From NCBI GenBank assembly GCA_965205015.1, contig OZ242029.1, positions 4,096,001-4,160,000 on the forward strand: a stretch of 64,000 nucleotides of DNA. Reading direction: 5' to 3'. Under the pieces are notes generated by a model that had not been told where the DNA came from, did no database searches, and saw only the letters and a program-made list of their open reading frames with translations. How positions within the stretch are numbered: position 1 is the stretch's first letter; the number at the start of each line of letters is the position of its first letter. Source of the stretch: Candidatus Poribacteria bacterium (GTDB lineage: Bacteria; Poribacteria; WGA-4E; WGA-3G). The position numbers and the translations under genes were made by a program. Of this stretch, positions 39,368 to 52,687 are shown piece by piece.

Positions 39368-39763
39368 TTGAAATTTTGCCCTTTATCAGTAAAACGAATG
39401 AAGAATCGAGATATGAACACCATAGTTAGAACAGCGCGAATACTTGATAGTAATCCTTGCCTGCGGGGCTCGTTGGTCCTTTCAGAAACCATCTGGATCC
39501 CCGATTTAACAAGCCTGATCGCCCCCCCCCCCCGCTTTACAAACGATAAGCGTTTAGCCCCACAATATTCACCGATTCTACCAATATTCCGTCCCCGTGC
39601 CCGCGCGCCATTTCACCCGATGGCATCCAGCGCGGGTTGTTTTTGTTGTCGTAGTTTCAGCAACACATATCCAACGAATGCCTTACGCACAATCGCATCT
39701 TTCCCTCTTGCAGTCGCAATGATTTATGAACCCCCTCAGTTAAACGAAACCCTCAACTTTTGA
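39368..39763 (+). CDS. Putative leader ORF containing a C12 tract; stop overlaps the TTG in frame with the helicase
   Basis: Open frame (in-frame ATGs at 39398 and 39413), no recognisable domain, TTGA overlap at 39760-39763. Confidence 0.35.
   Translation: MKFCPLSVKRMKNRDMNTIVRTARILDSNPCLRGSLVLSETIWIPDLTSLIAPPPRFTNDKRLAPQYSPILPIFRPRARAPFHPMASSAGCFCCRSFSNTYPTNALRTIASFPLAVAMIYEPPQLNETLNF
39522..39533 (+). repeat. Poly-C12 homopolymer (candidate phase-variation tract)
   Basis: g-C12-g; longest homopolymer noticed in the window. Confidence 0.85.
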
Positions 39764-39798
39764 ATCATAGCAGCAAAACGTTCAGAATCAGGTTAACT

Positions 39799-42700
39799 AT
39801 GTCAAATCTTAAATCCAGCATCCGAGACAATCATAAGAGGGGAAGCGTTGGCGACTTCCTTAAATCCAAAATTGAAGATGGATCCTCCCTCTCAATTGTT
39901 TCCGCGTACTTCACGATCCACGCCTTTCAAACACTCAAAGAATCGCTCACAAAAATCAAAGAGCTCCGGTTTCTGTATGGTGAACCTCGCTTTATAAAAA
40001 GCCTCAACTCCGAAAATACCGACAAGAAAGCCTTCAAAATTGAGGGCGAAACCGAAGGCTTGAAATTCGAGGATCGCTTAAAACAGAATTGGATTGCCAA
40101 AGAGTGTGCCGCATGGATTCGAGAAAAAGTACAGATTCAATCCATTCAAAAATCTAATCTGATGCATGCGAAAATGTATCACATCGCTAAGGATGGTGTA
40201 GAAGATGCCATTGTCGGAAGTTCCAATTTTACCGTGCGCGGCCTTGGAATGAGTGCAACAGACAATAACATTGAACTGAATCTTGAAGTAGACAGCAACC
40301 GAGATCGCAGTGACGTGAAGGTGTGGTTTGATGATATCTGGGAGGACAAAGAACTCGTCAAGGATGTCAAAGACGAGGTGCTGCTATACCTTGAGCAACT
40401 CTATCAGAACAACACCCCAGAGTTTATCTATTATAAAACGTTATATCACATCTTTGAACGGTTTTTAGGCGAACAAGAAAAAAGTGGACTCCTCGCTGAG
40501 GATGTGCAACTCGTCGATACGATTGTCTGGAACACTCTATTTGAATTCCAGAAGGATGCCGTGAAAGGCGCGATAAACAAAATTCGGCAACACAACGGGT
40601 GTATCATTGCGGATAGTGTCGGTTTAGGCAAAACCTTCGAGGCACTTGCTATCATCAAATACTTTGAACTCCTGAACAACAGAGTCCTCGTGCTATGCCC
40701 CAAGAAGTTGCGGGACAACTGGACAGATTACCGTGCAGACAATAACAGCGAGCTGAATCTGTTCTGCAAGGACCGCTTTCGATACACAGTCCTCTCCCAT
40801 ACCGATCTGAGTCGTGATGGTGGAAAGTCAGGCGATATTAACCTTGAAACCATCAATTGGGGCAACTACGATTTGGTTGTTATTGATGAATCGCACAATT
40901 TCCGTAACAATACACCCGGTAAGAGAGATGAGGACGGCAATTTGATCCGCAAAAGCCGGTACCAACGGCTAATGGAGGATATTATCCAGAGCGGCATCAA
41001 AACCAAAGTCCTATTGCTCTCTGCTACACCAGTGAATAACAATCTGAAGGATCTCCGCAACCAGATCTATTTTCTCACCGAAGGTCGAGACGACGCTTTC
41101 CAAAAGTCGCTTGGCATTGATAGCCTGCAAAGAACCCTGGCAGATGCCCAGCGCACTTTTACCGACTGGTCAAAGCAACAGGACGACCGCCAGACACGTG
41201 ACCTACTGGAACGGCTCAGTTCCACCTTTTTCAAACTGCTTGACGAGTTGACGATCGCCCGTTCTCGAAAACACATTGAGAAATACTATCCAGACTCACT
41301 GAAAGAGCTTGGTGGGTTCCCGGAGCGCAACAAGCCAATTTCTGTCTACACCGATATTGATTTGCAAGGTCAGTTCATGTCTTACGACGAACTTAACGAG
41401 GAAATTTCCGAATATCAACTCTCCCTATTCAATCCCTCAAAGTATGTGCTGCCCGAGTACATTTCCCAATACGAGGACGGACAGATTGGACAATTTACGC
41501 AAAGTGACCGTGAACACTACTTGATCGGTATGATGAAGGTCAATTTTCTCAAACGCTTGGAAAGTTCCGTTCACGCCTTTGGAATTACGATGGGACGGAC
41601 GATCGAAAAAATCGAGCAACTGGAAAAACGGATTAAACGATTCCAAGAGTTTCGCGAGGAAAATCCTGATATGGATTTGGAAGATGTTGATATCGAGGCA
41701 TTTGAGGATGAAGATCTACAAGAGGCAATGCAGGTAGGCAAAAAATTAGTCTTCAAAATGGTACACCTTAATACTGAAAGGTGGTTGACAGATTTGGAAC
41801 ACGACCGCGAACAACTTGAGTTGCCTTATCTCTATGCAAAGGATGTTACCGATGATCGCGATGCCAAACTCGCCAAACTCAAGCAACTCATCGCCGAAAA
41901 GGTTAAACAACCCACAAGAAATAAAAAAGGAAGACCGAATCGCAAGGTTCTGGTATTTACTGCCTTCGCAGATACAGCCAAATATCTCTACGATGCATTG
42001 GAACAATGGGCACCTGAAGAACTCGGTGTCCATATCGGAATGGTATCGGGAGGTACAAGCGGTAATAAGACAACCTTCGGCAGGACTGAATTCAGCAATA
42101 TCTTAACGAATTTTTCACCGAATTCCAAAAAACGTCACCTGATGAAAACCATGCCACAGGACGAGGAGATAGACCTGCTCATCGGCACGGATTGTATCTC
42201 GGAAGGACAAAACCTGCAGGACTGTGATTATCTCATTAACTACGACATTCATTGGAATCCAGTGCGTATCATTCAACGGTTTGGACGTATTGACCGCATC
42301 GGTAACAACAATGACAGCGTCCAGCTCGTCAACTTCTGGCCCACACCCGACCTCAACCGTTACATCAAACTAAAAAATCGGGTCGAAGCACGGATGGCAC
42401 TCGTAGACATTGCCGCAACGCAGGGGGATAATCTGTTAGAACCGGAAGGAATTCAGGAACTCCTTGAGGATGACCTCAAATACCGTGATCAGCAGCTGCT
42501 AAAACTGAAGGACGAAGTCTTAGACCTTGAGGATTTCAATGAGAGTGTCGCCCTCAACGAATTCACGCTTGATGACTTCCGTATTGACTTGATGAACTAT
42601 ATTGAGAGTAACCGGAAAACGCTTGAAGACGCACCTTTCGGACTCTATACCGTTGTGCCACCGGATCCCAAGTACCAGATGATGACCAAAGGGGTTATCT

Positions 42701-43092
42701 TCTGTCTGCGACAAAAAGGCGATTCCACAGGAAATGAGAAGATAAATCCGTTACAGCCCTATTTCTTGGTCTACATTCGCGAGGATGGCGAGGTGCGGTT
42801 TACTTTTGCACAACCTAAACAGATCTTGGAGATGTACCGCTTGTTGTGTGCAGATGTGAAAAAACCGTATGAAGACCTGTGTACCTTGTTTGACCAGCAA
42901 ACCGGCAACGGCACGGACATGACCCTCTACAATGACCTGCTGCAGAAAGCAGTTCATTCACTCAGTCGCACCTATCAGAGACGAGCCGTCAGTAATCTCT
43001 TAGTGGGTCGTGGCGGCACGCTACCTAAACGACAAAAGCAGATTAGCAATGTGACTGACTTTGAACTCATTACATGGTTGGTGATTCAATGA
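39799..43092 (+). CDS. PLD-nuclease/SF2 (SNF2-like) helicase fusion, putative restriction subunit (alternative TTG start 39760)
   Basis: MHAKMY...GSSNFT (HxK PLD), ADSVGLGKT, IDESHNFRN, LSATP, SEGQNLQ, WNP..IIQRFGRIDRIG. Confidence 0.9.
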   Translation: MSNLKSSIRDNHKRGSVGDFLKSKIEDGSSLSIVSAYFTIHAFQTLKESLTKIKELRFLYGEPRFIKSLNSENTDKKAFKIEGETEGLKFEDRLKQNWIAKECAAWIREKVQIQSIQKSNLMHAKMYHIAKDGVEDAIVGSSNFTVRGLGMSATDNNIELNLEVDSNRDRSDVKVWFDDIWEDKELVKDVKDEVLLYLEQLYQNNTPEFIYYKTLYHIFERFLGEQEKSGLLAEDVQLVDTIVWNTLFEFQKDAVKGAINKIRQHNGCIIADSVGLGKTFEALAIIKYFELLNNRVLVLCPKKLRDNWTDYRADNNSELNLFCKDRFRYTVLSHTDLSRDGGKSGDINLETINWGNYDLVVIDESHNFRNNTPGKRDEDGNLIRKSRYQRLMEDIIQSGIKTKVLLLSATPVNNNLKDLRNQIYFLTEGRDDAFQKSLGIDSLQRTLADAQRTFTDWSKQQDDRQTRDLLERLSSTFFKLLDELTIARSRKHIEKYYPDSLKELGGFPERNKPISVYTDIDLQGQFMSYDELNEEISEYQLSLFNPSKYVLPEYISQYEDGQIGQFTQSDREHYLIGMMKVNFLKRLESSVHAFGITMGRTIEKIEQLEKRIKRFQEFREENPDMDLEDVDIEAFEDEDLQEAMQVGKKLVFKMVHLNTERWLTDLEHDREQLELPYLYAKDVTDDRDAKLAKLKQLIAEKVKQPTRNKKGRPNRKVLVFTAFADTAKYLYDALEQWAPEELGVHIGMVSGGTSGNKTTFGRTEFSNILTNFSPNSKKRHLMKTMPQDEEIDLLIGTDCISEGQNLQDCDYLINYDIHWNPVRIIQRFGRIDRIGNNNDSVQLVNFWPTPDLNRYIKLKNRVEARMALVDIAATQGDNLLEPEGIQELLEDDLKYRDQQLLKLKDEVLDLEDFNESVALNEFTLDDFRIDLMNYIESNRKTLEDAPFGLYTVVPPDPKYQMMTKGVIFCLRQKGDSTGNEKINPLQPYFLVYIREDGEVRFTFAQPKQILEMYRLLCADVKKPYEDLCTLFDQQTGNGTDMTLYNDLLQKAVHSLSRTYQRRAVSNLLVGRGGTLPKRQKQISNVTDFELITWLVIQ

Positions 43093-46000
43093 ACGAACTG
43101 CAAACAAGAAAAAACATTGAGCAGGCACTGAAAGATTTTCAACGCGGAGCGCTGGCAATGAACGCCAACAACCTGCTTAACGCACTCGGTTACGAAAGTG
43201 AAATAACAGTAGAGCTTGAATCTAATCTCGCTGAGGAGTTCATCTCGTATTTCGACCAGTTTGGAAAACTAAACCCGGAACGGGCAATGGTAGATGAATG
43301 GGAGTCTATTGATTTTCTGTTTCAACTCACAGAAGAAGAAATCTCCGGAACAGGTCAGACGCGAATCGTTTTTAAAAACAGGCAGCTTGACAACACGGTT
43401 ATTGAATCATATGTTTTCTTCGCGCTAAAGTTACGGGAAAACAATTACACTCGCACACAGTTGGCCAACATTACCCGCGAAATCAATAGACTGACACCGA
43501 TGCCTGCAATGATTGTTTTCCAGCACGGTCAGACTGTGAGTCTCGCTGTCATCAATCGCCGCCTGCACAAGCGAGATGCAGCGAAGGACGTGCTTGAAAA
43601 GGTAACCCTGATTAAAGATATCGATTCCCACGATCCCCATCCCGCTCACATTCAAATTCTCTTTGACCTGTCACGAGATGAGCTGTTTAGGGTCCACGGC
43701 TTCAGCAACTTTGTTGAACTGCATCGTGCCTGGGCAAAAACACTTGATATCCAGGAGTTGAACAAACGATTCTATCGCGAACTCTCCAATTGGTACTTCT
43801 GGGCAATGGATAATGTAACTTTCCCAGAGGACGCAGGCGAAAATGTAGATATCCGCAACGCCACCAGTGTGATTCGCTTGGTTACACGGTTAATCTTTGT
43901 CTGGTTCATCAAGGAGAAAAAATTAGTCCCCGACATCTTCTTTAATCCGAGAGAGATAGAGAAAATCCTTGTCAGCACCGACCCACAGGAAAGTACTTAT
44001 TACAAAGCTATCCTCCAAAACCTTTTCTTCGCGACCCTCAATCAGGAGATGAACACCCCTAAAAAACCCGATAACCGTAAATTTCGCGGTAAGGGACGAC
44101 AGCACTACAATATCACGTCACTCTATCGCTATGAAACGTATTTCACGAATTCAGATGAGGCACTGCGACACTTTGAAAAAATCCCGTTCTTGAATGGTGG
44201 TCTCTTTGAATGCTTGGATAAAGAGAACAAGGACAATCCCAAGAAAATTCTACGGATTGATGGCTTTTCCGATCGGGCAGATAACCAGTTATCCGTTCCC
44301 AATTTCCTGTTCTTTTCCGAGGAAAGGAATGTTGACCTCAACAGCGTCTACGACACAAAAGGCAAGCGGTATAAGGTCCGTGGACTCATTGACATCCTCC
44401 GCCGCTACAAATTTACGATTACAGAAAACACTCCTATTGAAGAAGAAGTCGCGCTTGACCCGGAACTGCTCGGGAAGGTTTTTGAAAACCTGCTTGCGGC
44501 ATACAACCCCGAAACCGGTGCAACCGCACGGAAGCAGACCGGCTCCTTCTACACCCCTCGCGAAATCGTCAACTATATGGTTGACGAATCACTCATCGCT
44601 TACTTGAAAGAAAGTAGCAGGCACACTCCGTTGTGCCGTAGCATTGATACTGATGCGGCAACAGAAACCAAACTCCGCCACCTTCTCGCTTACAACGACG
44701 AACCCCATCAATTCACCGATACCGAAATCGAGCAGCTCATCAACGCCATTGATACCCTCAAAATACTGGACCCTGCCTGCGGATCGGGTGCTTTCCCGAT
44801 GGGCATTTTACATAAACTCGTTTTCATCCTCGGAAAGCTTGACCCACGTAACGACCAGTGGAGACAACGACAAATTGCCAAAGTCGAACACCTCATTGAT
44901 ATGGCAGAAGAAATTGACGACAGCACGGTTCGGCGAAACACCATCCGCGACCTCGAACAGGAAAAAGACAATATCAATGAGACATTTGAGCGGAACGAAC
45001 TCGACTACGGCAGAAAACTCTACCTCATAGAGAACTGCATCTACGGTGTGGATATCCAACCGATTGCGGTCCAGATCGCCAAACTCCGATTCTTCATTTC
45101 GCTCGTCGTAGACCAAAGAATTGACGATGCCCAAGAGAATAGAGGCGTGCGTCCTCTGCCCAATTTAGAAACCAAGTTTGTCGCGGGAAACACACTCATC
45201 GGTGTAGAGAAACCGACACAACTGTTAATGCGCAATCCAGAAATTGATCGCAAGGAAAGAGAATTGGGCGGGGTCCGAAGGAAACATTTCACCGCCCGCA
45301 CCCCAAGAACCAAAGAGAAATACCGCAACCTTGATAAGCAAATCCGTGCCGACATCAGTCAATTGCTCAGGAGCGACGGTTTCCCCAGCGAAACGACTGA
45401 AAAAATTGCTAACTGGGATCCTTATGACCAAAATGCAGTCGCCGATTTCTTTGATGCCGAGTGGATGTTCGGTATCACGGAGGGTTTTGATGTGGTGATT
45501 GGCAATCCACCTTACGTCCGTCAAGAGAAGATTAAAGCACTCAAACCTGCTTTCAAAAAACACTACACCTGTTACACGGGTGCTGCAGACCTCTACGTCT
45601 ATTTCTATGAGCGCGGACTCCAACTGCTGAGTCCAAACGGTATCCATACGTTTATCTGTTCCAACAGTTGGCTGGATGTCAACTACGGCGCGCCGCTACA
45701 GAAGTATGTATTAGACAACACCGCGGGGGCGGTTGTCTGTCACAGTGAAGCAGAACGTGAGTTTGAGAGTGCCGACATCAACACCATCGTGAGTATTCTC
45801 CAAAATGGGACTCCCAATGCGGATTCTCGTGCTCGTTTTCTCACCTTCAAGACTTTCATCGGCGATCCAGATGTAGAGAATCGCCGTGAAGGAACACGCA
45901 CCTATACCGAGTTAGCACAAGCCGGCACCCGCGATAACAGATATGCAGGAGACAAATGGGGCGGGAAGTATCTACGCGCCCCTGACATCTATTGGACGAT

Positions 46001-46817
46001 TTTAGAGAAAGGAAAAGATAAACTGGTGCGTCTGGGGGACATCGCGGAGGTGAGACGAGGCTTCACAACGGGTGCCAATGAGTTCTTTTATCTTGACGAT
46101 GAAAGGATTCAGGCATGGGACCTTGCGGATGAATTTCTGAAGCCTGTCATCAAGAGTCCACGGGAATGCAAAAGCATCCGTGTAGATCCCAACCAGTTGC
46201 AGTTCAAGTTATTTATGTGCCATGCAGATAAATCCGAATTAGCAGGGACTGCGGCGTTGGAATACATTGAATGGGGTGAGTCGCAGGGGTATCATCGGAG
46301 ACCGAGTTGTCGAGGTCGCACACGCTGGTGGGATTTGGGGCAATGGGAATACCCTGATATGTTATGGTCGGATGCCTACAATGTTCGATTTGGATGTTTT
46401 GAAAACGCTGGTGATTATTTTGCAGATAAACGGTTTTTCGTTATAGAATTCAAGGAGAACAATTTGGCAACGCGCGCCTACTTAAACAGCACTATCATTC
46501 CGTTGTTAATTGAAACCGAAGGTATCTCTAATTTGGGTGAAGGCGTTATTTATACCAACGTTTACTGGTTAAAAACACTTCCGATATTGACAGAAAACCG
46601 TATAACGAAAGAGATTCACCAATGCTATGAAAACATAAAAACGCGCGAGATCCTTCCTATCTTTGATGAAATCCATCAACCTGATCGTCGCGCCCTTGAC
46701 ACAATCATTTTCGATGCCCTTGACCTCACACAAGGTGAACGGGATGGTGTGTATGAAGCGGTTGTGAATCTGGTAGAATCGCGCCTGCGGAAGGCGAGGA
46801 GTTTGAAGGGTAAATAG
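43089..46817 (+). CDS. Eco57I/TaqI-like N6-adenine DNA methyltransferase with TRD (start ATG 43089)
   Basis: PFLNGGLF, LGKVFENLL, GSFYTPREIV, ILDPACGSGAF, IGNPPYVRQE; ATGA overlap with the helicase stop. Confidence 0.9.
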   Translation: MNELQTRKNIEQALKDFQRGALAMNANNLLNALGYESEITVELESNLAEEFISYFDQFGKLNPERAMVDEWESIDFLFQLTEEEISGTGQTRIVFKNRQLDNTVIESYVFFALKLRENNYTRTQLANITREINRLTPMPAMIVFQHGQTVSLAVINRRLHKRDAAKDVLEKVTLIKDIDSHDPHPAHIQILFDLSRDELFRVHGFSNFVELHRAWAKTLDIQELNKRFYRELSNWYFWAMDNVTFPEDAGENVDIRNATSVIRLVTRLIFVWFIKEKKLVPDIFFNPREIEKILVSTDPQESTYYKAILQNLFFATLNQEMNTPKKPDNRKFRGKGRQHYNITSLYRYETYFTNSDEALRHFEKIPFLNGGLFECLDKENKDNPKKILRIDGFSDRADNQLSVPNFLFFSEERNVDLNSVYDTKGKRYKVRGLIDILRRYKFTITENTPIEEEVALDPELLGKVFENLLAAYNPETGATARKQTGSFYTPREIVNYMVDESLIAYLKESSRHTPLCRSIDTDAATETKLRHLLAYNDEPHQFTDTEIEQLINAIDTLKILDPACGSGAFPMGILHKLVFILGKLDPRNDQWRQRQIAKVEHLIDMAEEIDDSTVRRNTIRDLEQEKDNINETFERNELDYGRKLYLIENCIYGVDIQPIAVQIAKLRFFISLVVDQRIDDAQENRGVRPLPNLETKFVAGNTLIGVEKPTQLLMRNPEIDRKERELGGVRRKHFTARTPRTKEKYRNLDKQIRADISQLLRSDGFPSETTEKIANWDPYDQNAVADFFDAEWMFGITEGFDVVIGNPPYVRQEKIKALKPAFKKHYTCYTGAADLYVYFYERGLQLLSPNGIHTFICSNSWLDVNYGAPLQKYVLDNTAGAVVCHSEAEREFESADINTIVSILQNGTPNADSRARFLTFKTFIGDPDVENRREGTRTYTELAQAGTRDNRYAGDKWGGKYLRAPDIYWTILEKGKDKLVRLGDIAEVRRGFTTGANEFFYLDDERIQAWDLADEFLKPVIKSPRECKSIRVDPNQLQFKLFMCHADKSELAGTAALEYIEWGESQGYHRRPSCRGRTRWWDLGQWEYPDMLWSDAYNVRFGCFENAGDYFADKRFFVIEFKENNLATRAYLNSTIIPLLIETEGISNLGEGVIYTNVYWLKTLPILTENRITKEIHQCYENIKTREILPIFDEIHQPDRRALDTIIFDALDLTQGERDGVYEAVVNLVESRLRKARSLKGK

Positions 46818-46819
46818 GG

Positions 46820-46936
46820 TGTCTGAATCGCGGATTTTCGCGGATTAGGCAGATTTCGCGGATTACGCTCCAGCGGAGCGATATGTCTATAGTACACATG
46901 ATGGGTCCAGTCTTCCGCTCCAGCGGAGCGGTATGT
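46820..46936 (+). repeat. Composite repeat: 9-mer array plus paired GCTCCAGCGGAGC palindromes
   Basis: tgtctgaatcgcggattttcgcggattaggcagatttcgcggatt then cgctccagcggagcg x2. Confidence 0.75.
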
Positions 46937-46985
46937 GAGGTATGAAAATTAGGAAAATTAGGTGAGTGTCAGATTCCAAATTTGG

Positions 46986-47015
46986 TTGATATCTGTCGGC
47001 TATATGTGCTATTCT
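46986..47015 (+). promoter_or_regulatory. Putative sigma70 promoter of the TIR-TPR/PIN operon
   Basis: TTGATA-N18-TATTCT with TG extension. Confidence 0.5.
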
Positions 47016-47121
47016 TAAGTATGGTAATCTGCATTGTTGAGAAAGCAGCGCACAAACCGTCTGAATCGCTGATTATACGGAGTTTTCCGATCCATATTAG
47101 CCTTGAATAGGGATGTAATGA

Positions 47122-50100
47122 ATGCCAAAATATGATGTTGCGTTGTCGTTCGCTGGACAAGATCGACAGCACGCCAAAGCCTTAGCAGATCTTCTTAAAA
47201 CGGGCGGATATACATTCTTTTATGATGAGAATGAGCGCGCGCACCTTTGGGGCAAAGATCTCTATGTTCACCTATCGTCGATTTACAAAAATCAGGCGCG
47301 CTATTGTATTATGTTTTTGTCTGAACACTATGCCCGGAACTTGTGGACCAACCATGAGCGCGAGAGTGCTCAGGCGAGGGCATTTCAGGAAAATCGCGAG
47401 TATATTCTCCCAGTTCGTATTGATGATACAGAAATACCGGGTATTCTCCCGACGGTTGGATATCTTGATTTACGTTCAATGACTATTGCAGAAGTCTATG
47501 AAGCCTTAGTAAAAAAGTTATCAAGTACTGCATCACGAAAAACACCATCCGATAACAACAATGCTCCTCATCCTGAGAGGGAGAAAGAAAAATCCTTTAA
47601 TCATGAACGCGATCAAAATGTAAACGCTGAAGATTCTAAAACATCTTTAGGTCAAAAAGGTGTGAGCGAAAAGGGATCTCATGAAAAGGCAAGCAACAGG
47701 CCACTAAAAGGATTCATTACATACTCACACGAGAATACTATACAAAAAGACGAATTACGCAAACGTTTTGCCGTAATGAAGCAGAATAATGAGCTAATAA
47801 CATGGGATGACGGTCAACTTACACCTGGAGATGGAGCACTTCAGGAAGACATTCTCGAAAAGATTGCTGATTCGGACCTACTACTCTACCTTGTTTCTGC
47901 CGCGAGTCTTGACTCTAAAAACTGTAACAGGGAATTAGCAGAGGCGTTGAAGCGAGAGATTAGAGTTATCCCGATTATCCTTGAGCATTGCGATTGGCTG
48001 CATCATCAACTTAGCGGTTTTGAAGTTCTTCCACACAAAGGGAAGCCGCTTAGCGGTTGGGACGATCAGAGCGAAGGCTGGCAAAATGTGGTGGATGGCG
48101 TTCGAAAAGCACTTAACAAGATGGGGGGGGGATCCGAGACACCCGAGAAAGAGTTACGCGCTGAATTAGCGTTCCAACGTGGGAATACTATCATGATACT
48201 CGGACAACTGGATATGGCAATAGAGGCGTACTCTGATGCTATCAATCTCAATCCGCGTAACGCGAGTGCCTATTGCAATCGCGGTGTTGCTTACATGGAA
48301 AAAGGCGAACTTGATCGCGCTATTAAGGACTATAACATAGCGATAAAATTGGGTTTCAAGCATGCTTTAGTCCATACCAATCGCGGGGTCGCTTATGGGA
48401 AAAAAGAGGAACATGATCTTGCTATAAAAGATTATAACAAAGCCATAGAACTCAATTCCGGTTTTGCCCATGCCTATTACAACCGGGGTGTCGCTTATAG
48501 TGATATAGGCGAATTGGATCTTGCTATTCAAGACTATACTAAAGCAATAGAACGTAAACACGATTATATTCAAGCCTACACCGGCCGAGGTCTTGTCTAC
48601 AGCGAAAAAAATGATTTTGACTTAGCAATTGCGGACTATACTCAGGCAATAGAACTCAATCAACACTATGCAGCTGCCTACAACAACCGCGGACTCGCTT
48701 ACGTTAGTACGGGTGAGTTGGATCTTGCTATTCAAGACTATACTAAAGCAATAGAACTCAATCCAAAGTTTGCCGGAACCTATTATAATCGCGGTGTTGC
48801 TTATGGACAGAAAAATGAAATTGATAAAAGTATCGTTGATTATACCAAGACAGTAGAACTGGATTCTAATTATGTGGATGCCTACTACTGTCTCGGCAAT
48901 GCCTATGTTGATAAAGACAAATTTATCGCAGCCATCACACACTATAGTAAAGTGATAGAATTGGATCCAGATTATGTTGAGGCCTATTATAATCGAGGTT
49001 GGACGCATAGCAAAAATGCCAATCATGATCTTGCTATTGCAGATTGTGACATGGTAATAGAATTAGAACCGAGTCGTGCGGGAGCATATAACATGCGCGG
49101 TGTTTCCAACTACAGTAAAGGCAATTCCGCGAATGCAATTAAAGACTTTAGCAAAGCAATAGAATTAGAGCCAGATTATGTTGATGCCTATAATAACCGC
49201 GGCAACGTTTACCTCAAAAGCAGACAAGTTGTTCTTGCGCTTAAAGACTTTAACAAGGCAATAGAACTTAATCCCAAGTATAGAGATGCCTATAATGGTC
49301 TCGCTGAAGTTCATAGCGTTAGAGATGAGTTTGACCAGGCTATTGCCAACTATAACAAGGCACTAAAATTGGATCCTAATTATGCCGTGGCCTATTGCAA
49401 TCGAGGCAATGTCTATAATGACAAAGGCGAGGTAGACAAGGCAATTGCGGATTATAACAGGGCGATTGCCCTAGACTCGAAAAATGCCGAAACCTATTAT
49501 AGTAGAGGCAATACGTACCTCAATAAAGGTGAGTTTGATCTCGCTATCACAGATTATAATAAAGCAATAGAACTCAACCTAGACAAGGCTGAAGTCTACT
49601 TATACCGCGGCGTGGCTCGGATGTGCTTGCGAAATTGGCAAGATGCCAAAGCCGATCTGATTGTTGCCCGGGACAAAGAGTTGGATATCACCGATGCGTT
49701 TCATAAAGACATCAAAAGTATTGAAGCCCTTGAGCGAATAGTCGGTACTCCATTGCCCACAGATATTGCTTTACTGTTAACGCACCAAGTACTTGAACCT
49801 AATAATGCTGAAACCTATATCATCCGTGGCATTGCTTACGCTAAAAATGGCGAGTATGATCTTGCCGTTGCTGATTTTAGCAAGGCAATAGAACTAGAAC
49901 CAGAGACGCTTATTGCCTATGGGCATCGCGGCGTAGCTTACTACAACGAAGGCAAGTTTCACCAAGCGGTCACTGACTTTAATAGAACAATAAGCCTTAC
50001 ACCTGAAGACCCATTTGCCTATTATGTTCGCGGGATGGCTTACCGTAACCTGTTGGTTTTTGAGAAAGCCATCCAAGACTTTAGCACAGCGGCAATACGT

Positions 50101-51027
50101 CTCAAACCCGATGCGGCTGCCAATGCCTATACGGAACGCGGTGTAACCTACCACCTTAAGGGGGACGTGGATAAGGCAATTGAAGACTATAACACTGCAA
50201 TAGCGTTGGATCCAAAGTTCCCAAAGGCTTATACGGAACGTGGAAAGACTTACCGCGATAAAGGCGAGGTAGACAAGGCGATTGCGGATTACGACAGAGC
50301 CATAGAACTTAATCCAGAGTTTGCTGAGCCTTATACCTGCCGCGGCTCCATCTACAAGGAACGAGGCGAGATAGACAAGGCGATTGAAGATCACAGGAAA
50401 GCCATAGAATTGAATCCAGAATTTGCTGAAGCATACCTCAATCGGGGACAGGCTTACTACGCCAAGAACGAATTGGACAAGGCGATTGCGGATTATGACA
50501 AAGCCATAGAGCTTGATCCAAAACTTGTGGAGGCATACACGCATCGGGGCAACGCATATCGCGACAAAGCCGAGTTAGACAGTGCAATTACGGATTATAC
50601 GAAGGCACTAAAACTCAGACCAAAAGTTGCCGAATCCTATTATACACGGGGTGAAGCGTGGTTGCTTGCGAAAAGGTGGGAAGAAGCAAAGACCGACCTG
50701 ACAGCTGCGCTCTTACAAGACGTAGATGTTGCCGCTGTGTTTCACAATACCTATGAAAGCACTGCTGCCTTTGAACAAAAAATAGGGGTTCGTTTACCGA
50801 AAGAGATTGTTGAGTTGCTGACCCCACCGAGCGGGTCCCCGTTTGAAATTGGGAGAGACGCGCGGATCGCGTTAGGAATGAAGTACTACGGGAGCGGTGA
50901 ACTTAGCAGTGGTCTTGCCTCGAAACTCGCAGGGGTCCCGCGCGAAGAATTCTGGCGTCTGATGGGGGATTATGGGCTCTCTCCTTTGTATGTTGATGAG
51001 GAGGAGCTTGTCAATAGCGGATTTTAA
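47122..51027 (+). CDS. TIR-TIR-TPR(~24)-UPF0175 antitoxin-like fusion protein
   Basis: TIR1 YDVALSFAG...WTNHE; TIR2 FITYSHEN...NCNRE...VIPIILEHCDW; 15+9 TPRs of ~34 aa; C-terminal RIALGMKYYGSGELSSGLASKLAGVPREEFWRLMGDYG. Confidence 0.88.
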   Translation: MPKYDVALSFAGQDRQHAKALADLLKTGGYTFFYDENERAHLWGKDLYVHLSSIYKNQARYCIMFLSEHYARNLWTNHERESAQARAFQENREYILPVRIDDTEIPGILPTVGYLDLRSMTIAEVYEALVKKLSSTASRKTPSDNNNAPHPEREKEKSFNHERDQNVNAEDSKTSLGQKGVSEKGSHEKASNRPLKGFITYSHENTIQKDELRKRFAVMKQNNELITWDDGQLTPGDGALQEDILEKIADSDLLLYLVSAASLDSKNCNRELAEALKREIRVIPIILEHCDWLHHQLSGFEVLPHKGKPLSGWDDQSEGWQNVVDGVRKALNKMGGGSETPEKELRAELAFQRGNTIMILGQLDMAIEAYSDAINLNPRNASAYCNRGVAYMEKGELDRAIKDYNIAIKLGFKHALVHTNRGVAYGKKEEHDLAIKDYNKAIELNSGFAHAYYNRGVAYSDIGELDLAIQDYTKAIERKHDYIQAYTGRGLVYSEKNDFDLAIADYTQAIELNQHYAAAYNNRGLAYVSTGELDLAIQDYTKAIELNPKFAGTYYNRGVAYGQKNEIDKSIVDYTKTVELDSNYVDAYYCLGNAYVDKDKFIAAITHYSKVIELDPDYVEAYYNRGWTHSKNANHDLAIADCDMVIELEPSRAGAYNMRGVSNYSKGNSANAIKDFSKAIELEPDYVDAYNNRGNVYLKSRQVVLALKDFNKAIELNPKYRDAYNGLAEVHSVRDEFDQAIANYNKALKLDPNYAVAYCNRGNVYNDKGEVDKAIADYNRAIALDSKNAETYYSRGNTYLNKGEFDLAITDYNKAIELNLDKAEVYLYRGVARMCLRNWQDAKADLIVARDKELDITDAFHKDIKSIEALERIVGTPLPTDIALLLTHQVLEPNNAETYIIRGIAYAKNGEYDLAVADFSKAIELEPETLIAYGHRGVAYYNEGKFHQAVTDFNRTISLTPEDPFAYYVRGMAYRNLLVFEKAIQDFSTAAIRLKPDAAANAYTERGVTYHLKGDVDKAIEDYNTAIALDPKFPKAYTERGKTYRDKGEVDKAIADYDRAIELNPEFAEPYTCRGSIYKERGEIDKAIEDHRKAIELNPEFAEAYLNRGQAYYAKNELDKAIADYDKAIELDPKLVEAYTHRGNAYRDKAELDSAITDYTKALKLRPKVAESYYTRGEAWLLAKRWEEAKTDLTAALLQDVDVAAVFHNTYESTAAFEQKIGVRLPKEIVELLTPPSGSPFEIGRDARIALGMKYYGSGELSSGLASKLAGVPREEFWRLMGDYGLSPLYVDEEELVNSGF

Positions 51028-51029
51028 GG

Positions 51030-51521
51030 ATGCCAATACAGCCAGTTATTAGCAATAACAGTCCGCTTGTTGGACTCTTCGGGCTCAACCTTCTTTCTCT
51101 ATTGCGTGATCTTTATACAGAGGTGTGGATTCCACGAAAAGTTGAAAAGGAGTTTCTCAAAAAAGATCCGATAGTTCGTCGGGAAGCCCTCGAAAATGCG
51201 CCTTGGATTAAAACCGTCGATTTAACGGATCCGCAAACCGCTGCGGTTTATGTGGCACTTGATGACGGTGAAGCCGAAACCTTGGCTCTTGCGAATGAAC
51301 ATGATGCACGTCTCGTTCTTCTTGATGAAAAGGTGGGAAGACAGACTGCCGAAGAAGTTGGATTAACGGTTAAGGGGACAGTCGGCATTTTGTTGGAAGC
51401 AAAGGAAAAAGGCTTGATTGATGTTATCAAGCCGCTTTTAATTCGGTTGCAGGATAACGGAATGCACCTGAGCGAATCACTCATCCATAACGCCCTGCAA
51501 AGGGCAGGTGAGACAGATTAA
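51030..51521 (+). CDS. DUF3368-family PIN-domain nuclease (VapC-like toxin)
   Basis: VISNNSPL, IPRKVEKE, LDDGEAETLALA, LLDEKVGR, GTVGILLEAKEKGLI; starts 2 nt after the upstream stop. Confidence 0.88.
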   Translation: MPIQPVISNNSPLVGLFGLNLLSLLRDLYTEVWIPRKVEKEFLKKDPIVRREALENAPWIKTVDLTDPQTAAVYVALDDGEAETLALANEHDARLVLLDEKVGRQTAEEVGLTVKGTVGILLEAKEKGLIDVIKPLLIRLQDNGMHLSESLIHNALQRAGETD

Positions 51522-51523
51522 CG

Positions 51524-51708
51524 GTTTTCTGCACACCTATCGCCCCCTTGGGGCTTAGGTATGACATTTGGGGACTGGCTCCACTTGACTAACCCGCTCT
51601 TCTCCTGAAAATCCTAAAATCCCGTAAATCCTGATTCTGACAGCTCCGCCTCACCCTTGCCAAAATCCGCGTAATCCGTATAATCCGTGAAAATCCGCGA
51701 TTCAGACA
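51524..51708 (-). repeat. Composite repeat (two 9-mer arrays plus GCCCC REP), inverted relative to 46820
   Basis: aaaatccgcgtaatccgtataatccgtgaaaatccgcgattcagaca; ttctgcacacctatcgcccccttggggct. Confidence 0.7.
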
Positions 51709-51709
51709 A

Positions 51710-52687
51710 CTATCCCCGCGCAAACACCAAAACATCGTAACTCTGTCCGCTATACGTGAATTGATCTTTGAACCGACCTTCACAGGTAAAGCCTGCGGCT
51801 TCCAAAATCTCCGCCTTCTTTGCAGCACCGCTGTCAATATAACACTGAACCTTTGACTCAGGAAACGTCACTGCAGAAAGCAACGCCGGAACAGCGTCTG
51901 CAAAATTCGGATGAAAGAAGAGGTCCAACACAGCAGTCGCGGGTCGCCAACGTGAATCCCGACCGACAGTTGCCCATCCCACGATTGCTCCACCTGAAGA
52001 AATTAACAATTTCGCATCGTCGTAGGCGTCCTCGGTTTCCAAATCGTGTTTGAAACTCAGAAATCCGCCCTCAAGGTTCGTGGGACCGTAAACCCCCCAC
52101 TTCAGACTTCGGAGTGTGTCCCATCCGACAATACCCGATAACGCCGTGACTTTCGGCCAATCGTGCCATTCCACGGATTTCGGTGCCGCAGGTGCAGGCG
52201 CGAAGTAACGTTCCTCAAAGTCCTCATTGACATGATACTTCATGAAACCGGACTCTGGAAATACGCTTTCAAATCCGAAACTGTGATAGATATAATAGGG
52301 ATGACTCTTGTAACCCGTGCCGAGGTAGAGTGCCTTGCCTAACCGTTGTCGGAAATCCTCCATCTGATACGCCATCACGCCTTTTGCTGCCCCCTTCCTG
52401 CGCTGTTCTGGCATGGTAAAAACGTGTCCTAAAATACCGACGCCTTCATACTCAACCGTCATGATGTTGGTAATCACAGTGCCGTCGAGTTTACCGACAT
52501 AGAAACGGGTTTCTAATACATCAAGGATTTCCGTGACGCACCGCTCAATATGCCACTTATAGTTCCCCGGTTTATGCCCAAGGAATTGTTTCACCTCTTC
52601 GGCGTGAGGCGTGTCTGGGGCGGTAATGACACCGACCTCCATCCGTTCCCCTGTTTTCAGTAATGCGTCTCCGAGTTTATCGTACAT
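51710..52687 (-). CDS. Tandem GNAT acetyltransferase (start reassigned to 52687)
   Basis: GHVFTMPEQRRKGAAK, YHSFGFE, second GNAT-like lobe LEAAGFTCEG; GAGG SD. Confidence 0.8.
   Translation of the reverse strand: MYDKLGDALLKTGERMEVGVITAPDTPHAEEVKQFLGHKPGNYKWHIERCVTEILDVLETRFYVGKLDGTVITNIMTVEYEGVGILGHVFTMPEQRRKGAAKGVMAYQMEDFRQRLGKALYLGTGYKSHPYYIYHSFGFESVFPESGFMKYHVNEDFEERYFAPAPAAPKSVEWHDWPKVTALSGIVGWDTLRSLKWGVYGPTNLEGGFLSFKHDLETEDAYDDAKLLISSGGAIVGWATVGRDSRWRPATAVLDLFFHPNFADAVPALLSAVTFPESKVQCYIDSGAAKKAEILEAAGFTCEGRFKDQFTYSGQSYDVLVFARG

What the first reader, a model, noticed from the sequence alone, without database searches (positions are those of the whole stretch)
47122..51521. TIR-TIR-TPR sensor fused to a UPF0175 antitoxin, coupled to a DUF3368 PIN nuclease: candidate undescribed defence system
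Seen in sequence: one 1301-aa ORF carries two dissimilar TIR domains (~47122-47520 and ~47700-48117). Both retain the catalytic-position Glu (WTNHE, NCNRE). They are followed by ~24 TPRs and a ~55-aa C-terminus (RIALGMKYYGSGELSSGLASKLAGVPREEFWRLMGDYG...EEEL) matching the small UPF0175 HTH antitoxins. A DUF3368 PIN gene starts 2 nt after its stop. Established knowledge: UPF0175 and DUF3368 normally occur as a small stand-alone two-gene TA-like pair; bacterial TIRs are NADases or signal synthases (Thoeris, CBASS, Avs effectors); TPR arrays sense phage proteins in Avs. Inference: ligand binding to the TPRs, or cleavage, could both activate the TIRs and release a tethered PIN RNase, giving a dual-effector abortive-infection or dormancy switch. 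It lies directly downstream of an RM-like operon and has its own predicted promoter.
Basis: partly seen in the sequence, partly recalled or inferred. Interest (0 to 1): 0.88.

Follow-up and report, generated by a model that had tools for sequence, protein, structure and literature searches.

The report
TIR–TPR protein with built-in antitoxin, plus PIN
A sponge-symbiont (Poribacteria) gene joins two TIR enzyme domains and a long TPR repeat array to an antitoxin-like domain that is predicted to hold the neighbouring PIN nuclease, and it is one variant of a phylum-wide module whose front end is swapped between defence-type domains.

Summary
ORF 47122-51027 (1301 aa) carries two dissimilar TIR domains. 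Both keep the catalytic-position Glu (E79, E271). About 22 TPRs in two blocks follow, each block capped by an ordered helical element, then a C-terminal UPF0175 domain (46 bits, cut-off 27.9). A DUF3368 PIN gene (PADLOC PDC-S70) starts 2 nt after the stop.

It is not a one-off or an artefact. Contigs from three samples of two studies keep the fused frame. In 50 of 50 related loci, all Poribacteria or unnamed MAGs, UPF0175 is the C-terminal end of a TPR protein. The PIN or its remnant follows in 43 of 50. By my count, 77 of 150 sampled genomes of the phylum carry the fused module.

The conserved unit is TPR-cap-UPF0175 plus PIN. The N-terminus is a swappable slot: TIR-TIR here, another TIR, FRG or DUF2971 elsewhere, and nothing in most loci. 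A complex model supports binding (ipSAE 0.74; best control 0.00). It places the UPF0175 tail on the PIN's acidic site.

Caveats: the PIN's first catalytic Asp is Asn; the TIRs are not part of the conserved core; TIR-TPR defence proteins and PDC-S70 are already described; the promoter call is weak. Most likely this is a TPR-sensor defence or abortive-infection module with a tethered PIN. Verdict: new variant of known kinds.

The parts
39760..43092 (+). Context: HKD (PLD) nuclease + SNF2 helicase gene, the first gene of the RM/DISARM-like pair upstream
   Evidence: Pfam matches PLDc_2, SNF2-rel_dom and Helicase_C. PADLOC matches C3a139 'HKD+Snf2' at 1.5e-127 and DrmD at 6e-40. This gene is absent from the syntenic locus L009.
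43074..46817 (+). Context: Eco57I-like type IIG methylase/restriction gene, forming the conserved left flank of the variable region
   Evidence: Pfam matches Eco57I at 134 bits and N6_Mtase. PADLOC matches REase_MTase_IIG at 2.8e-73. It is 79-89% nt identical in L001, L002, L003, L015 and L023.
46818..47121 (+). Intergenic region with two copies of a 24-nt repeat holding the palindrome CGCTCCAGCGGAGCG (46863-46886, 46913-46936). The conserved flank ends near 46947.
   Evidence: Repeats. The palindrome occurs only twice in 64 kb, against 0 expected. blastn to syntenic loci stops at about 46850-46947. Contigs of X1 and X4 diverge behind 46947 (table 7). One weak promoter-like site lies at 46986-47015, matching 9 of 12.
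47122..51027 (+). The 1301-aa ORF: TIR-TIR-TPR(14)-cap-TPR(8)-cap-UPF0175
   Evidence: The frame is supported by contigs of X1 and X3 (0 differences) and of X4 (substitutions only, no stops among the 33 listed, one 3-nt deletion).
47128..47481 (+). TIR domain 1 (AbTIR/PDC-S66-like), with catalytic-position Glu E79 (WTNHE, nt 47344-47358)
   Evidence: TIR_2 at 65 bits. PDB phmmer matches 7uxr, 7uwg and AbTIR 8g83, with WTNHE aligned to WTNYE. PADLOC matches PDC-S66 at 1e-14. The Glu is kept in 5 of 5 relatives.
47525..47706 (+). Hydrophilic low-complexity spacer between the two TIRs (about aa 135-195)
   Evidence: Translation. It aligns among 4 of 5 TIR-TIR proteins and is partly deleted in P0248. 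No Pfam match was listed for this stretch.
47713..48132 (+). TIR domain 2 (ThsB-like), with catalytic-position Glu E271 (NCNRE, nt 47920-47934)
   Evidence: PADLOC ThsB1 at 7e-25. TIR_2 at 45.6 bits and ThsB_TIR at 28.9 bits. PDB match to Cat1 9mud at E 8e-4 with the Glu aligned.
48157..49647 (+). TPR block 1 (about 14 repeats). Together with the TIRs it forms the variable part of the locus.
   Evidence: Pfam TPR families. 34-residue signature from aa 366 to 808. Only repeat-level similarity (63-81%) to the syntenic loci.
49648..49782 (+). Internal helical cap ('linker' motif, ...WQDAKADL...LPTDIALLL). This is the point where stand-alone TIR-TIR-TPR genes end.
   Evidence: P0245-P0248 end with this motif (...LPEDIAAMLTPLQS). 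P0247 residues 1-890 align to window residues 1-887. The same internal motif is seen at locus positions 6951-7091 (6951-7082 in L005, 6954-7094 in L038) of L002, L003, L005, L013, L016, L024 and L038, inside continuous ORFs.
49798..50676 (+). TPR block 2 (about 8 repeats), the start of the conserved module
   Evidence: 73% aa identity to P0003 over residues 893-1301. 78-87% nt identity to L001-L003, L005, L009, L013, L015 and L016. Model pLDDT 93-99.
50677..50796 (+). Cap 2: ordered helices that close the TPR solenoid and lead into UPF0175
   Evidence: AlphaFold model m8a7da93863a6: helices at model positions 147-159, 164-172, 175-182 and 188-194, with pLDDT 93-97 and pTM 0.85. No Pfam family was found for the internal copy of the motif (protein 1).
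50797..51009 (+). UPF0175 (COG2886) antitoxin-like helix-turn-helix domain, fused
   Evidence: Pfam 46.3 and 51.1 bits against a cut-off of 27.9. It aligns over the full length of stand-alone UPF0175 proteins. Three helices in the model. Predicted PIN contacts are G1259-L1265 and P1273-L1296.
50971..51024 (+). C-terminal acidic tail (…SPLYVDEEELVNSGF), low-confidence when modelled alone and predicted to lie on the PIN active site
   Evidence: pLDDT falls to 75, 47 and 37 over the last blocks, and model residues 254-262 are below 50. Interface residues G1285-D1292, E1295 and L1296 touch PIN D99, E100, G116-G119 and others.
51030..51521 (+). DUF3368 / COG2405 PIN-fold protein (PADLOC PDC-S70), starting 2 nt after the stop of the big ORF
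   Evidence: Pfam DUF3368 at 58.7 bits. PADLOC at 1e-43. Model pLDDT 93.6. The Foldseek top hits are VapC/PIN proteins, with 5h4g_B at TM 0.63/0.72. E41, D78, E81, D99 and E100 are conserved, but the first catalytic position is N9. An RNA-library contig of a relative spans 50967-51163.

Best explanation
The window comes from a Poribacteria (sponge-symbiont) chromosome.

What it is. The conserved unit, found across the phylum, is a two-gene module: a TPR solenoid ending in an ordered helical cap and a UPF0175 antitoxin-type domain, followed by a translationally coupled DUF3368 PIN protein. It is a toxin-antitoxin-like pair in which the antitoxin is not a small labile protein but the C-terminal end of a repeat scaffold. 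The 5' end of the scaffold gene is a recombination-prone slot that carries different defence-type domains in different lineages. In this window a complete TIR-TIR-TPR-cap gene, which exists as a stand-alone gene elsewhere, has been joined in frame to the module. That gives the 1301-aa protein.

How it most likely works.
- Shown: domain identities, conserved residues, conservation of the fusion and of the adjacency, swapping of the N-terminal domain, and the PIN fold.
- Supported by a model only: the UPF0175 helix-turn-helix and its acidic tail sit on the PIN's acidic groove. The PIN would thus be held and masked on the scaffold.
- Inferred: the TPR arrays bind a trigger, such as a phage protein or a cellular signal of infection. 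Binding, oligomerisation or loss of the tail then releases or unmasks the PIN. In this variant it also brings the TIR pairs together so that they hydrolyse NAD+ or make a signal. The outcome would be growth arrest or abortive infection.
For: 1. Domains and catalytic-position residues are confirmed.
2. The fusion is conserved. In 50 of 50 loci the UPF0175 match is the C-terminal end of a 172-1346-aa TPR ORF. By my count, 77 of 150 sampled genomes of the phylum have a full cap+UPF0175 match inside frames of 175-1354 aa. A more distant clade (L055, L056) shows the same fusion with a PIN.
3. The PIN lies directly downstream. It is full-length in 35 of 50 loci, truncated, frameshifted or a remnant in 8, and absent in 7. 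In the one complete genome checked, the only DUF3368 match listed is this partner.
4. The complex model supports binding but does not show it. Score 0.74, best of 3 controls 0.00. The mark was reached by 58 of 80 solved complexes and 2 of 110 mismatched pairs. The runs agree in at least 84% of their contacts and the partner's pLDDT is at least 62. These counts hold only roughly because my own alignments were used. The interface covers PIN S11, E41, D78, E81, D99 and E100. P0002 had no sequence match in the PDB, so I know of no solved like complex by that test.
5. The tail is low-confidence when modelled alone, while the cap and HTH are confident (pLDDT 91.6, pTM 0.85).
6. The N-terminus behaves as an effector slot. 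TIR-TIR is found here, TIR_2 in L015, FRG in L003 and L043, DUF2971 in P0003 and P0004, and a ThsB-like TIR in P0013. All match PADLOC defence or candidate models: ThsB, Aga_TIR, PDC-S66, PDC-S15, PDC-S31.
7. Synteny shows conserved flanks with a hypervariable middle.
8. Defence neighbours are seen. An RM/DISARM-like pair lies upstream here. The module is embedded in a type I RM operon in L046. In L055 the ORF after the PIN looked to me like a type III restriction Res gene, read by eye and not scanned.
9. One PDC-S70 representative lowered plating of T7, T4 and T5 about 100-1000-fold (bioRxiv 10.1101/2024.09.26.614923, passages read). TIR+TPR proteins defend E. coli and need the TIR active site (PMC11350192, passages read).
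10. The fused frame is kept in contigs of two studies, with mostly synonymous or conservative changes.
Against: 1. 47 of 50 loci have no enzymatic N-terminal domain fused. The module therefore works, if it works, without a TIR.
2. TIR1-type genes lie elsewhere in the genomes where both were listed. None of the 120 listed proteins with this TIR region carries UPF0175.
3. The PIN's first catalytic position is Asn in the window and in 30 of 33 intact relatives. It is Asp in L028, L030, L033 and in 3 of 4 outgroups. Matelska et al. list COG2405 as having a variable active site, '2-5 (+/-)' (PMC5499597, passages read).
4. The PIN is degraded or absent in 15 of 50 loci while the scaffold gene stays open. 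Either the toxin is dispensable or these copies are decaying.
5. There is no NTPase or other known oligomerisation switch.
6. In L038 and L045 the flanks are housekeeping-type genes.
7. Poribacteria are exceptionally rich in TPR proteins, which have been read as host-interaction factors (PMC3909097, passages read).
8. No experiment exists on any fused member. Neither the trigger nor the release step has any direct evidence.
9. The RNA evidence is one metatranscriptome's contigs from a relative, and the tool warns that these do not show transcription.
Confidence: 0.5

Rival explanations
1. It is a plain toxin-antitoxin (addiction or stress) module whose antitoxin happens to be carried on a TPR protein. 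The TIR-TIR part is a passenger brought in by recombination among the many paralogous TPR genes of Poribacteria. TIR and PIN are not functionally coupled, and the module has no role in phage defence.
For: The core is TPR-UPF0175 + PIN without any effector in 47 of 50 loci. TPR repeats at 63-81% nt identity offer recombination substrates, and the junction lies exactly where stand-alone TIR-TIR-TPR genes end. PIN decay in 8 loci and loss in 7 resembles the turnover of TA loci. The flanks of L038 and L045 are housekeeping-type genes. UPF0175-COG2405 has long been predicted to be a TA pair (PMC2701414 and PMC5499597, passages read).
Against: The N-terminal domains that get attached are not random. 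All match defence or candidate models. The fusion of UPF0175 to TPR is kept across a phylum, which argues that the scaffold matters for the antitoxin's function. The fused TIR frame is kept under mostly synonymous or conservative change in a second study's strain. RM association is seen here and in L046. A PDC-S70 member has shown antiviral activity (bioRxiv 10.1101/2024.09.26.614923, passages read).
Confidence: 0.22
2. It is a TPR-coupled transcription regulator. The UPF0175 helix-turn-helix binds DNA, the TPRs sense a ligand, and the PIN-fold protein, weakened at its active site, acts as a co-repressor or anti-regulator and not as a toxin.
For: UPF0175 was predicted to be an HTH of the Fis type (PMC2701414, passages read). 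The model shows a three-helix bundle. Asn stands at the first catalytic position in 30 of 33 PINs. Proteins that combine an HTH with TPRs are known ligand-sensing regulators, such as the RRNPP family (recalled, not tested here).
Against: The other acidic residues of the PIN (E41, D78, E81, D99, E100) are invariant or nearly so, which is unexpected for a purely structural partner. In the complex model the HTH surface and the tail are used to bind the PIN. TIR, FRG and DUF2971 N-termini are not expected on a regulator. No operator-like repeat was looked for or found.
Confidence: 0.1
3. It is a eukaryote-like repeat protein used by the symbiont toward its sponge host: a TIR mimic of host Toll/IL-1 signalling on a TPR scaffold. 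The UPF0175-PIN pair would only control its expression or stability.
For: TPRs are the most frequent 'eukaryote-like' repeats in Poribacteria and are postulated to act on the host (PMC3909097, passages read). Ankyrin, WD40 and FG-GAP genes lie nearby. Bacterial TIR proteins that interfere with host signalling are known (recalled).
Against: I noticed no signal peptide or secretion domain at the N-terminus, which starts directly with the TIR; no predictor was run. Both TIRs keep the Glu at the position recalled as the enzyme's catalytic one. The alternative N-terminal domains are defence-type. The conserved partner is an intracellular TA-type nuclease.
Confidence: 0.08
4. The long ORF is an assembly chimera or a one-off read-through of separate genes.
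For: TPR repeats are hard to assemble. Stand-alone TIR-TIR-TPR genes end exactly at the internal junction. The exact TIR-TIR...UPF0175 architecture was not found in the 150 genomes sampled or among the 120 proteins listed.
Against: X1 and X3 contigs cover the internal junction and the UPF0175/PIN boundary with 0 differences. An X4 contig from another study runs 47833-50085 across the junction with 17 substitutions and no gaps, and none of the 33 substitutions listed in X4 contigs across the stretch creates a stop. X1 may be the source sample, so it is not independent. Seven other loci have continuous ORFs across the same internal cap.
Confidence: 0.03

Closest known systems
UPF0175 (COG2886) - DUF3368 (COG2405) predicted type II toxin-antitoxin pair, listed as PADLOC candidate PDC-S70
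   Same: The same two families in the same order, with an overlap or a few nucleotides between the genes. The PIN fold and most acidic residues are present. One PDC-S70 representative protected E. coli from T7, T4 and T5 (bioRxiv 10.1101/2024.09.26.614923, passages read).
   Different: Here the antitoxin-type domain is not a 75-100-aa protein. It is the C-terminal end of a 172-1346-aa TPR scaffold, with an ordered helical cap in front of it and, in some lineages, an enzymatic N-terminus. The first catalytic Asp of the PIN is Asn in most Poribacteria copies.
TIR-II of E. coli (TIR + TPR in one protein or split) and BcTir/Tpr of Bacillus cereus
   Same: A TIR domain with the conserved Glu joined to a TPR array, without an NTPase. 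Anti-phage activity that needs the TIR active site has been shown for TIR-II (PMC11350192, passages read). BcTir/Tpr defends through NAD+ depletion (bioRxiv 10.1101/2023.05.26.542521, abstract read).
   Different: I saw no report of an antitoxin domain or a PIN partner for those systems. Here there are two different TIRs in tandem and two TPR blocks. Sequence kinship to TIR-II or BcTpr was not tested.
Thoeris (ThsB TIR sensor + ThsA effector)
   Same: TIR2 matches the ThsB models (PADLOC 7e-25; Pfam ThsB_TIR 28.9 bits).
   Different: No ThsA-type effector (SIR2/SLOG, Macro, TM) lies among the neighbouring genes scanned. The TIR is fused to TPRs.
Avs / STAND NTPase sensors with TPR-like sensor arms and swappable N-terminal effectors
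   Same: The logic of a repeat sensor with an exchangeable N-terminal effector domain (TIR among them).
   Different: There is no NTPase domain, so the known oligomerisation switch is missing. The conserved C-terminal antitoxin domain and PIN have no counterpart in Avs.
Fused toxin-antitoxin defence proteins such as CapRel(SJ46) (recalled, not looked up here)
   Same: The idea that an antitoxin-type domain built into a larger protein masks a toxin until a phage protein is sensed.
   Different: In CapRel the antitoxin domain is fused to the toxin itself. Here it is fused to a sensor/effector scaffold, and the toxin stays a separate gene.

Membership tests
TIR domain (Pfam TIR_2, PF13676) | Profile match above the curated cut-off, for each of the two domains | tested here: met
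   65.4 bits (aa 1-143 scanned alone) and 45.6 bits (aa 191-345 scanned alone) against a cut-off of 28.
TIR domain (enzymatic NADase type) | Glu at the catalytic position | tested here: met
   E79 aligns with the Glu of AbTIR WTNYE. E271 aligns with the Glu of Cat1 and L6. Both are conserved in relatives. That this Glu is the catalytic one is recalled knowledge.
TIR domain (enzymatic NADase type) | NAD+ hydrolysis or signal synthesis | not testable with these tools
   Needs an enzyme assay.
Thoeris | A ThsA-type effector gene next to the ThsB TIR gene | tested here: not met
   The neighbours are an HKD+SNF2 helicase, a type IIG methylase, the PIN, a GNAT and NDK. None showed a SIR2, SLOG or Macro match.
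TIR-II (E. coli TIR+TPR defence) | TIR and TPR in one protein (or an adjacent pair), with the TIR active site present | tested here: met
   The architecture is as described in PMC11350192 (passages read).
TIR-II (E. coli TIR+TPR defence) | Sequence kinship to the tested E. coli proteins, and phage protection | not tested
   No TIR-II sequence was on hand. Protection needs an experiment.
UPF0175 / COG2886 antitoxin | Profile match above the cut-off over the whole domain | tested here: met
   46.3 and 51.1 bits against a cut-off of 27.9, covering profile positions 2-69 of 75. It aligns with stand-alone members.
UPF0175 / COG2886 antitoxin | Encoded directly upstream of a COG2405/DUF3368 gene | tested here: met
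   The gap is 2 nt. The PIN or a remnant follows in 43 of 50 relatives.
UPF0175 / COG2886 antitoxin | A small stand-alone protein | tested here: not met
   It is the C-terminal end of a 1301-aa protein here, and of 172-1346-aa proteins in 50 of 50 loci.
UPF0175 / COG2886 antitoxin | Binds and neutralises the PIN | tested here: inconclusive
   The complex model supports binding (0.74 against 0.00 for the best control; the mark was reached by 58 of 80 solved complexes and 2 of 110 mismatched pairs). Neutralisation needs an experiment.
DUF3368 / COG2405 PIN (PADLOC PDC-S70) | Profile matches | tested here: met
   Pfam 58.7 bits against a cut-off of 27.3. PADLOC PDLC05071 at 9.7e-44 over 156 of 161 positions.
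PIN-domain nucleases (VapC group) | PIN fold | tested here: met
   Model pLDDT 93.6. The Foldseek top hits are PIN/VapC chains at probability 1.00, with TM up to 0.63/0.72.
PIN-domain nucleases (VapC group) | Full set of conserved acidic active-site residues | tested here: not met
   E41, D78, E81, D99 and E100 are present, but the first position is N9 where 3 of 4 outgroups and 3 of 33 relatives have Asp. The assignment of active-site positions rests on alignment and recalled PIN knowledge.
Avs / STAND NTPase sensors | A central P-loop STAND NTPase domain | tested here: not met
   No NTPase family appears among the 25 of 36 Pfam matches shown for P0001, which were TIR, TPR-type and UPF0175 families. 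The segments between the domains are accounted for by TPRs and caps.

The most novel reading that the evidence does not exclude
Poribacteria hold a previously undescribed class of modular immune proteins. An antitoxin domain serves as a fixed C-terminal dock that tethers and masks a PIN nuclease on a TPR sensor. The N-terminal end is a cassette slot through which defence effectors (TIR pairs, FRG, DUF2971) are shuffled by recombination at a conserved chromosomal hotspot. On this reading, a good part of the 'eukaryote-like' TPR repertoire of sponge symbionts is antiviral and not host-directed.
Probability: 0.35. Interest if true: 0.8.

Novelty: new variant of a known kind. Interest (0 to 1): 0.62.

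Why it matters
If the reading holds, it shows a new way of wiring a toxin-antitoxin pair into immunity. The antitoxin would be neither free and labile nor fused to its toxin. It would be built into a repeat sensor that can also carry other effectors.

That makes a long-standing question directly testable: how TA modules sense infection. One can ask whether the TPR array controls release of the PIN.

It would also reframe many TPR 'eukaryote-like proteins' of sponge symbionts, so far read as host-interaction factors (PMC3909097, passages read), as conflict systems.

The locus itself is a clean natural example of effector swapping on a fixed sensor-toxin chassis.

If the reading fails, the result is still useful: a phylum-wide TPR-extended UPF0175 antitoxin with a PIN whose first catalytic residue has changed.

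Tried and rejected
- Own genome: none is held, so copy number in the window's own genome is unknown. I used the genome behind L002 instead.
I used the closer alignment A2. Its two search patterns are clade-specific. So finding only Poribacteria and unnamed MAGs says nothing about absence elsewhere.
- The metagenome scan with distant members gave only 6 loci, 2 of them with the whole domain. Their taxonomy is unknown.
I could not name the organisms of P0013-P0025.
- Promoter and terminator scan: nothing convincing upstream of the ORF.
- Rfam: no family in 46500-52000.
- tRNA scan: none in the window.
- The PDB sequence search with the PIN found nothing at E up to 10. The fold search was needed.
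- The 'linker' motif has no Pfam family. I first took it for a flexible linker and rejected that after the model showed ordered helices.
- I considered that the cap's last segment (LPxEIxxLL) is a beta strand of UPF0175. The model shows it as a helix.
- Parts of the stretch without cover in X4 and X19 are not used as evidence.
- The joints in table 5 have short sides (21-32 nt) within TPR repeats. I treat them as repeat cross-matches.
- The weak PDB hit 9m0n, 'Tetratricopeptide repeat protein' (E 0.39), was not followed up.
- Supplementary files of papers were not opened. Supplementary figures of PMC11350192 (TIR-II architectures) and of PMC5499597 (COG2405 contexts) might show fusions that I could not see.
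- Not-in-print claim: it rests on the searches (UPF0175/DUF3368: 4 papers, none on fusions in the passages read).

Full report
**1. What is in the sequence.**

They are separated by TAA-GG-ATG.

Pfam and PADLOC confirm every domain call:
- TIR_2 at residues 6-120: 65 bits when that segment is scanned alone. It also matches PADLOC PDC-S66.
- A second TIR: the segment 191-345 scores 45.6 bits and also matches Pfam ThsB_TIR. PADLOC ThsB1 (7e-25) places it at residues 198-337.
- TPR_1: 21 stretches.
- UPF0175 at residues 1226-1296: 46.3 bits against a cut-off of 27.9.
- The small protein: DUF3368 at 58.7 bits, and PADLOC candidate system PDC-S70 at 1e-43.

The two TIRs are only marginally alike (23% over 86 residues, E 0.075). 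E79 (WTNHE) aligns with the Glu of AbTIR's WTNYE. E271 (NCNRE) aligns with the Glu of Cat1 and of flax L6. Both are conserved in relatives.

By the 34-residue period there are about 22 TPRs, 14 in a first block and 8 in a second.

The 'own promoter' is weak: one 9-of-12 match, in a region where such matches are common.

**2. The organism and the locus.**

No genome is held for the window. The flanks are 79-90% identical at the DNA level to contigs of Candidatus Poribacteria MAGs, and sponge and coral metagenome runs hold parts of the stretch. The window is therefore from a Poribacteria chromosome.

Synteny is clear:
- The type IIG methylase gene upstream (43074-46817) is conserved in several species-level genomes.
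- So is everything from about 49330-49930 rightwards: TPR block 2, UPF0175, the PIN, a GNAT gene and ndk.
- The stretch between them, about 46950-49330, is not conserved.

In that slot other genomes carry other things:
- L003 and L043: an FRG domain fused to the TPR gene.
- L015: a different TIR, fused, giving 1346 aa.
- L013 and L016: a DUF2971 gene.
- L001: separate FRG-TPR genes.
- L002: an unknown gene plus a TPR gene.

L009 lacks the RM-like genes altogether. Contigs of two runs diverge right behind 46947, the edge of the conserved flank.

**3. The conserved unit.**

I searched with the last 112 residues.
- The word-index search of proteins of similar length found two proteins of 883 and 865 aa. 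They share residues 893-1301 at about 73% identity but start with DUF2971 instead of TIRs.
- The exhaustive representative search found 120 proteins at E up to 0.001, 18 of them at E up to 1e-10. They include TPR-UPF0175 fusions of many lengths and one ThsB-like-TIR-TPR-UPF0175 protein of 557 aa, P0013.
- One representative, P0007, reads from UPF0175 straight into a DUF3368 sequence.

In 50 loci from species-representative genomes (47 titled Poribacteria, 3 unnamed MAGs) the UPF0175 match is, in 50 of 50, the C-terminal end of a TPR-rich ORF of 172-1346 aa.

The PIN gene follows within -32 to +14 nt. Its state across the 50 loci is:

| PIN state | Loci |
|---|---|
| Full-length | 35 |
| Truncated ORF | 4 |
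| Frameshifted | 1 |
| Remnant only | 3 |
| Absent | 7 |

In one complete genome, the only DUF3368 match listed is this partner. Of its two UPF0175 matches, one is fused and one stands alone.

In a sample of 150 genomes of the phylum, 123 have some match to the cap+UPF0175 profile. By my hand count of the per-genome table, 77 have a match at E up to 1e-28. All listed places at that level span the cap and UPF0175 inside frames of 175-1354 aa. Some genomes hold tandem arrays.

Two metagenome contigs of a more distant clade show the same fusion followed by a PIN.

Elsewhere the pair is small and stand-alone. All four plasmid records inspected show this, as does the literature (PMC5499597 and PMC2701414, passages read).

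**4. How the window's gene arose.**

TIR-TIR-TPR proteins of 716-894 aa exist on their own, at 64-79% identity over the first 345 residues. They end exactly with the helical 'cap' motif (…LPEDIAAMLTPLQS). P0247 aligns 1-890 with window residues 1-887. In the window that motif (…LPTDIALLL, to residue 886) runs on in frame into TPR block 2.

So the 1301-aa protein is a stand-alone-type TIR-TIR-TPR-cap gene joined to the conserved module.

None of the 120 listed proteins with this TIR region has UPF0175. TIR1-type genes, found in 43 of 150 genomes, lie away from the module wherever both were listed. The TIR-TIR fusion is thus a rare recombinant.

It is not an artefact:
- X1, which may be the source sample, and X3 cover the joins with no differences.
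- An X4 contig from another study runs from TIR2 across the internal cap into block 2 with 17 substitutions and no gaps.
- None of the 33 substitutions listed in X4 contigs across the stretch makes a stop, and most are synonymous or conservative.
- Seven other loci have continuous ORFs across the same internal cap.

**5. Structure and binding.**

The PIN model is confident (pLDDT 93.6). Its best structural matches are VapC-type PIN toxins and other PIN nucleases.

The model of residues 1040-1301 is also confident (pLDDT 91.6, pTM 0.85). It shows:
- The 'linker' is an ordered set of helices capping the solenoid.
- UPF0175 is a three-helix bundle.
- The last residues are of low confidence.

On the complex of the PIN with residues 1185-1301, the model supports binding; it does not show it. 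The score is 0.74 and the best of 3 controls is 0.00. The mark was reached by 58 of 80 solved complexes and 2 of 110 mismatched pairs. The runs agree in at least 84% of their contacts, and the partner's pLDDT is at least 62. The counts hold only roughly, because my own alignments were used.

The contacts are G1259-L1265 and P1273-L1296 on the scaffold. On the PIN they include S11, E41, D78, E81, D99 and E100. This is the geometry expected of an antitoxin that covers the active site. The comparison with VapB-VapC is recalled.

**6. Points against a simple 'dual-effector' picture.**
- Most members have no N-terminal enzyme.
- The PIN's first catalytic position is Asn in the window and in 30 of 33 intact relatives. 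It is Asp in three relatives and in three of four outgroups.
- The PIN has decayed or is absent in 15 of 50 loci.
- There is no NTPase switch.
- Some loci sit among housekeeping-type genes.
- Poribacteria TPR proteins have been read as host-interaction factors (PMC3909097, passages read).

**7. Points for a defence role.**
- All N-terminal alternatives match PADLOC defence or candidate models: ThsB, Aga_TIR, PDC-S66, PDC-S15, PDC-S31.
- The window's copy follows an HKD+SNF2 / type IIG methylase pair.
- In L046 the module is embedded between HsdM and HsdR.
- PDC-S70 is a 'guilt-by-embedding' candidate (PMC12988326, passages read).
- One PDC-S70 representative lowered plating of T7, T4 and T5 by about 100-1000-fold (bioRxiv 10.1101/2024.09.26.614923, passages read).
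- TIR+TPR proteins defend E. coli (PMC11350192, passages read) and Bacillus cereus (bioRxiv 10.1101/2023.05.26.542521, abstract read).

**8. Verdict.**

The best reading (0.5) is a TPR-sensor module that tethers and masks a PIN through a built-in antitoxin domain, with a swappable N-terminal effector, here a TIR pair.

The rivals are:
- a plain TA pair with a passenger TIR (0.22);
- a TPR-HTH regulator with a non-toxic PIN partner (0.10);
- a host-directed repeat protein (0.08);
- an artefact (0.03).

The parts are known kinds. The fusion of UPF0175 to a TPR scaffold and the effector slot were not found in the papers searched (supplements not seen). I rate it a new variant of known kinds, with interest 0.62.

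Noticed in passing
window 39760-46817: This is a two-gene RM/DISARM-like unit. The first gene fuses an HKD (PLD) nuclease to an SNF2 helicase (PADLOC 'C3a139 HKD+Snf2' at 1.5e-127, plus DrmD-like matches). The second is an Eco57I-like type IIG methylase with a weak DUF4391 match and DrmMI-like matches. The two ORFs overlap by 19 nt. The unit is absent from syntenic locus L009.
   Followed up: partly
window 46863-46886 and 46913-46936: Two copies of a 24-nt repeat contain the perfect palindrome CGCTCCAGCGGAGCG. It occurs nowhere else in the 64 kb. The copies lie just inside the conserved flank, next to the point (about 46947) where related genomes and metagenome contigs diverge. It could be a terminator pair or a recombination boundary.
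   Followed up: partly
L028 7539-10067; L030 7989-10528; L033 97-1540; G014:C1 1300949-1310275; G009:C35 181707-184241: Some Poribacteria genomes carry tandem arrays of three or four short TPR-UPF0175 units spaced about 1.1 kb apart (frames of about 178-208 aa where listed). Whether each unit has its own PIN was not checked.
   Followed up: no
proteins P0034, P0056, P0096, P0099, P0245-P0248: The helical 'cap' motif (W.EAK.DL...F...Y.S...FE...G..LP.DI..LLTP) ends many TIR-TPR and FRG-TPR proteins that have no UPF0175. It also recurs between TPR blocks inside single proteins, three times in P0034. It has no Pfam family.
   Followed up: partly
one search list (P0249-P0361): More than a hundred distinct ThsB-like-TIR-TPR proteins of 717-1157 aa were listed; the rows that carry a source name are all Candidatus Poribacteria. 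This is a large, undiscussed TIR expansion in a sponge-symbiont phylum. Two proteins with a TIR1-like N-terminus, P0362 and P0364 (about 1280 aa), have no TPR Pfam match at all.
   Followed up: no
window 31376-36586, 37744-38958, 55445-58761: The surrounding genes include a 1736-aa gingipain-like peptidase C25 with a FlgD_ig-type C-terminal domain, an ankyrin-repeat gene, a 531-aa TPR gene and an FG-GAP/ASPIC gene. These are typical 'eukaryote-like' content of sponge symbionts.
   Followed up: no
L002 2446-3798: A 450-aa ORF in the variable slot of L002 has no Pfam match and only a weak PADLOC PDC-S06 match (1.2e-4).
   Followed up: no
PDB 9m0n_A: A solved 824-aa 'Tetratricopeptide repeat protein' gave a weak match (E 0.39) to TIR2 at its N-terminus. 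It may be a solved TIR-TPR protein worth comparing by fold.
   Followed up: no
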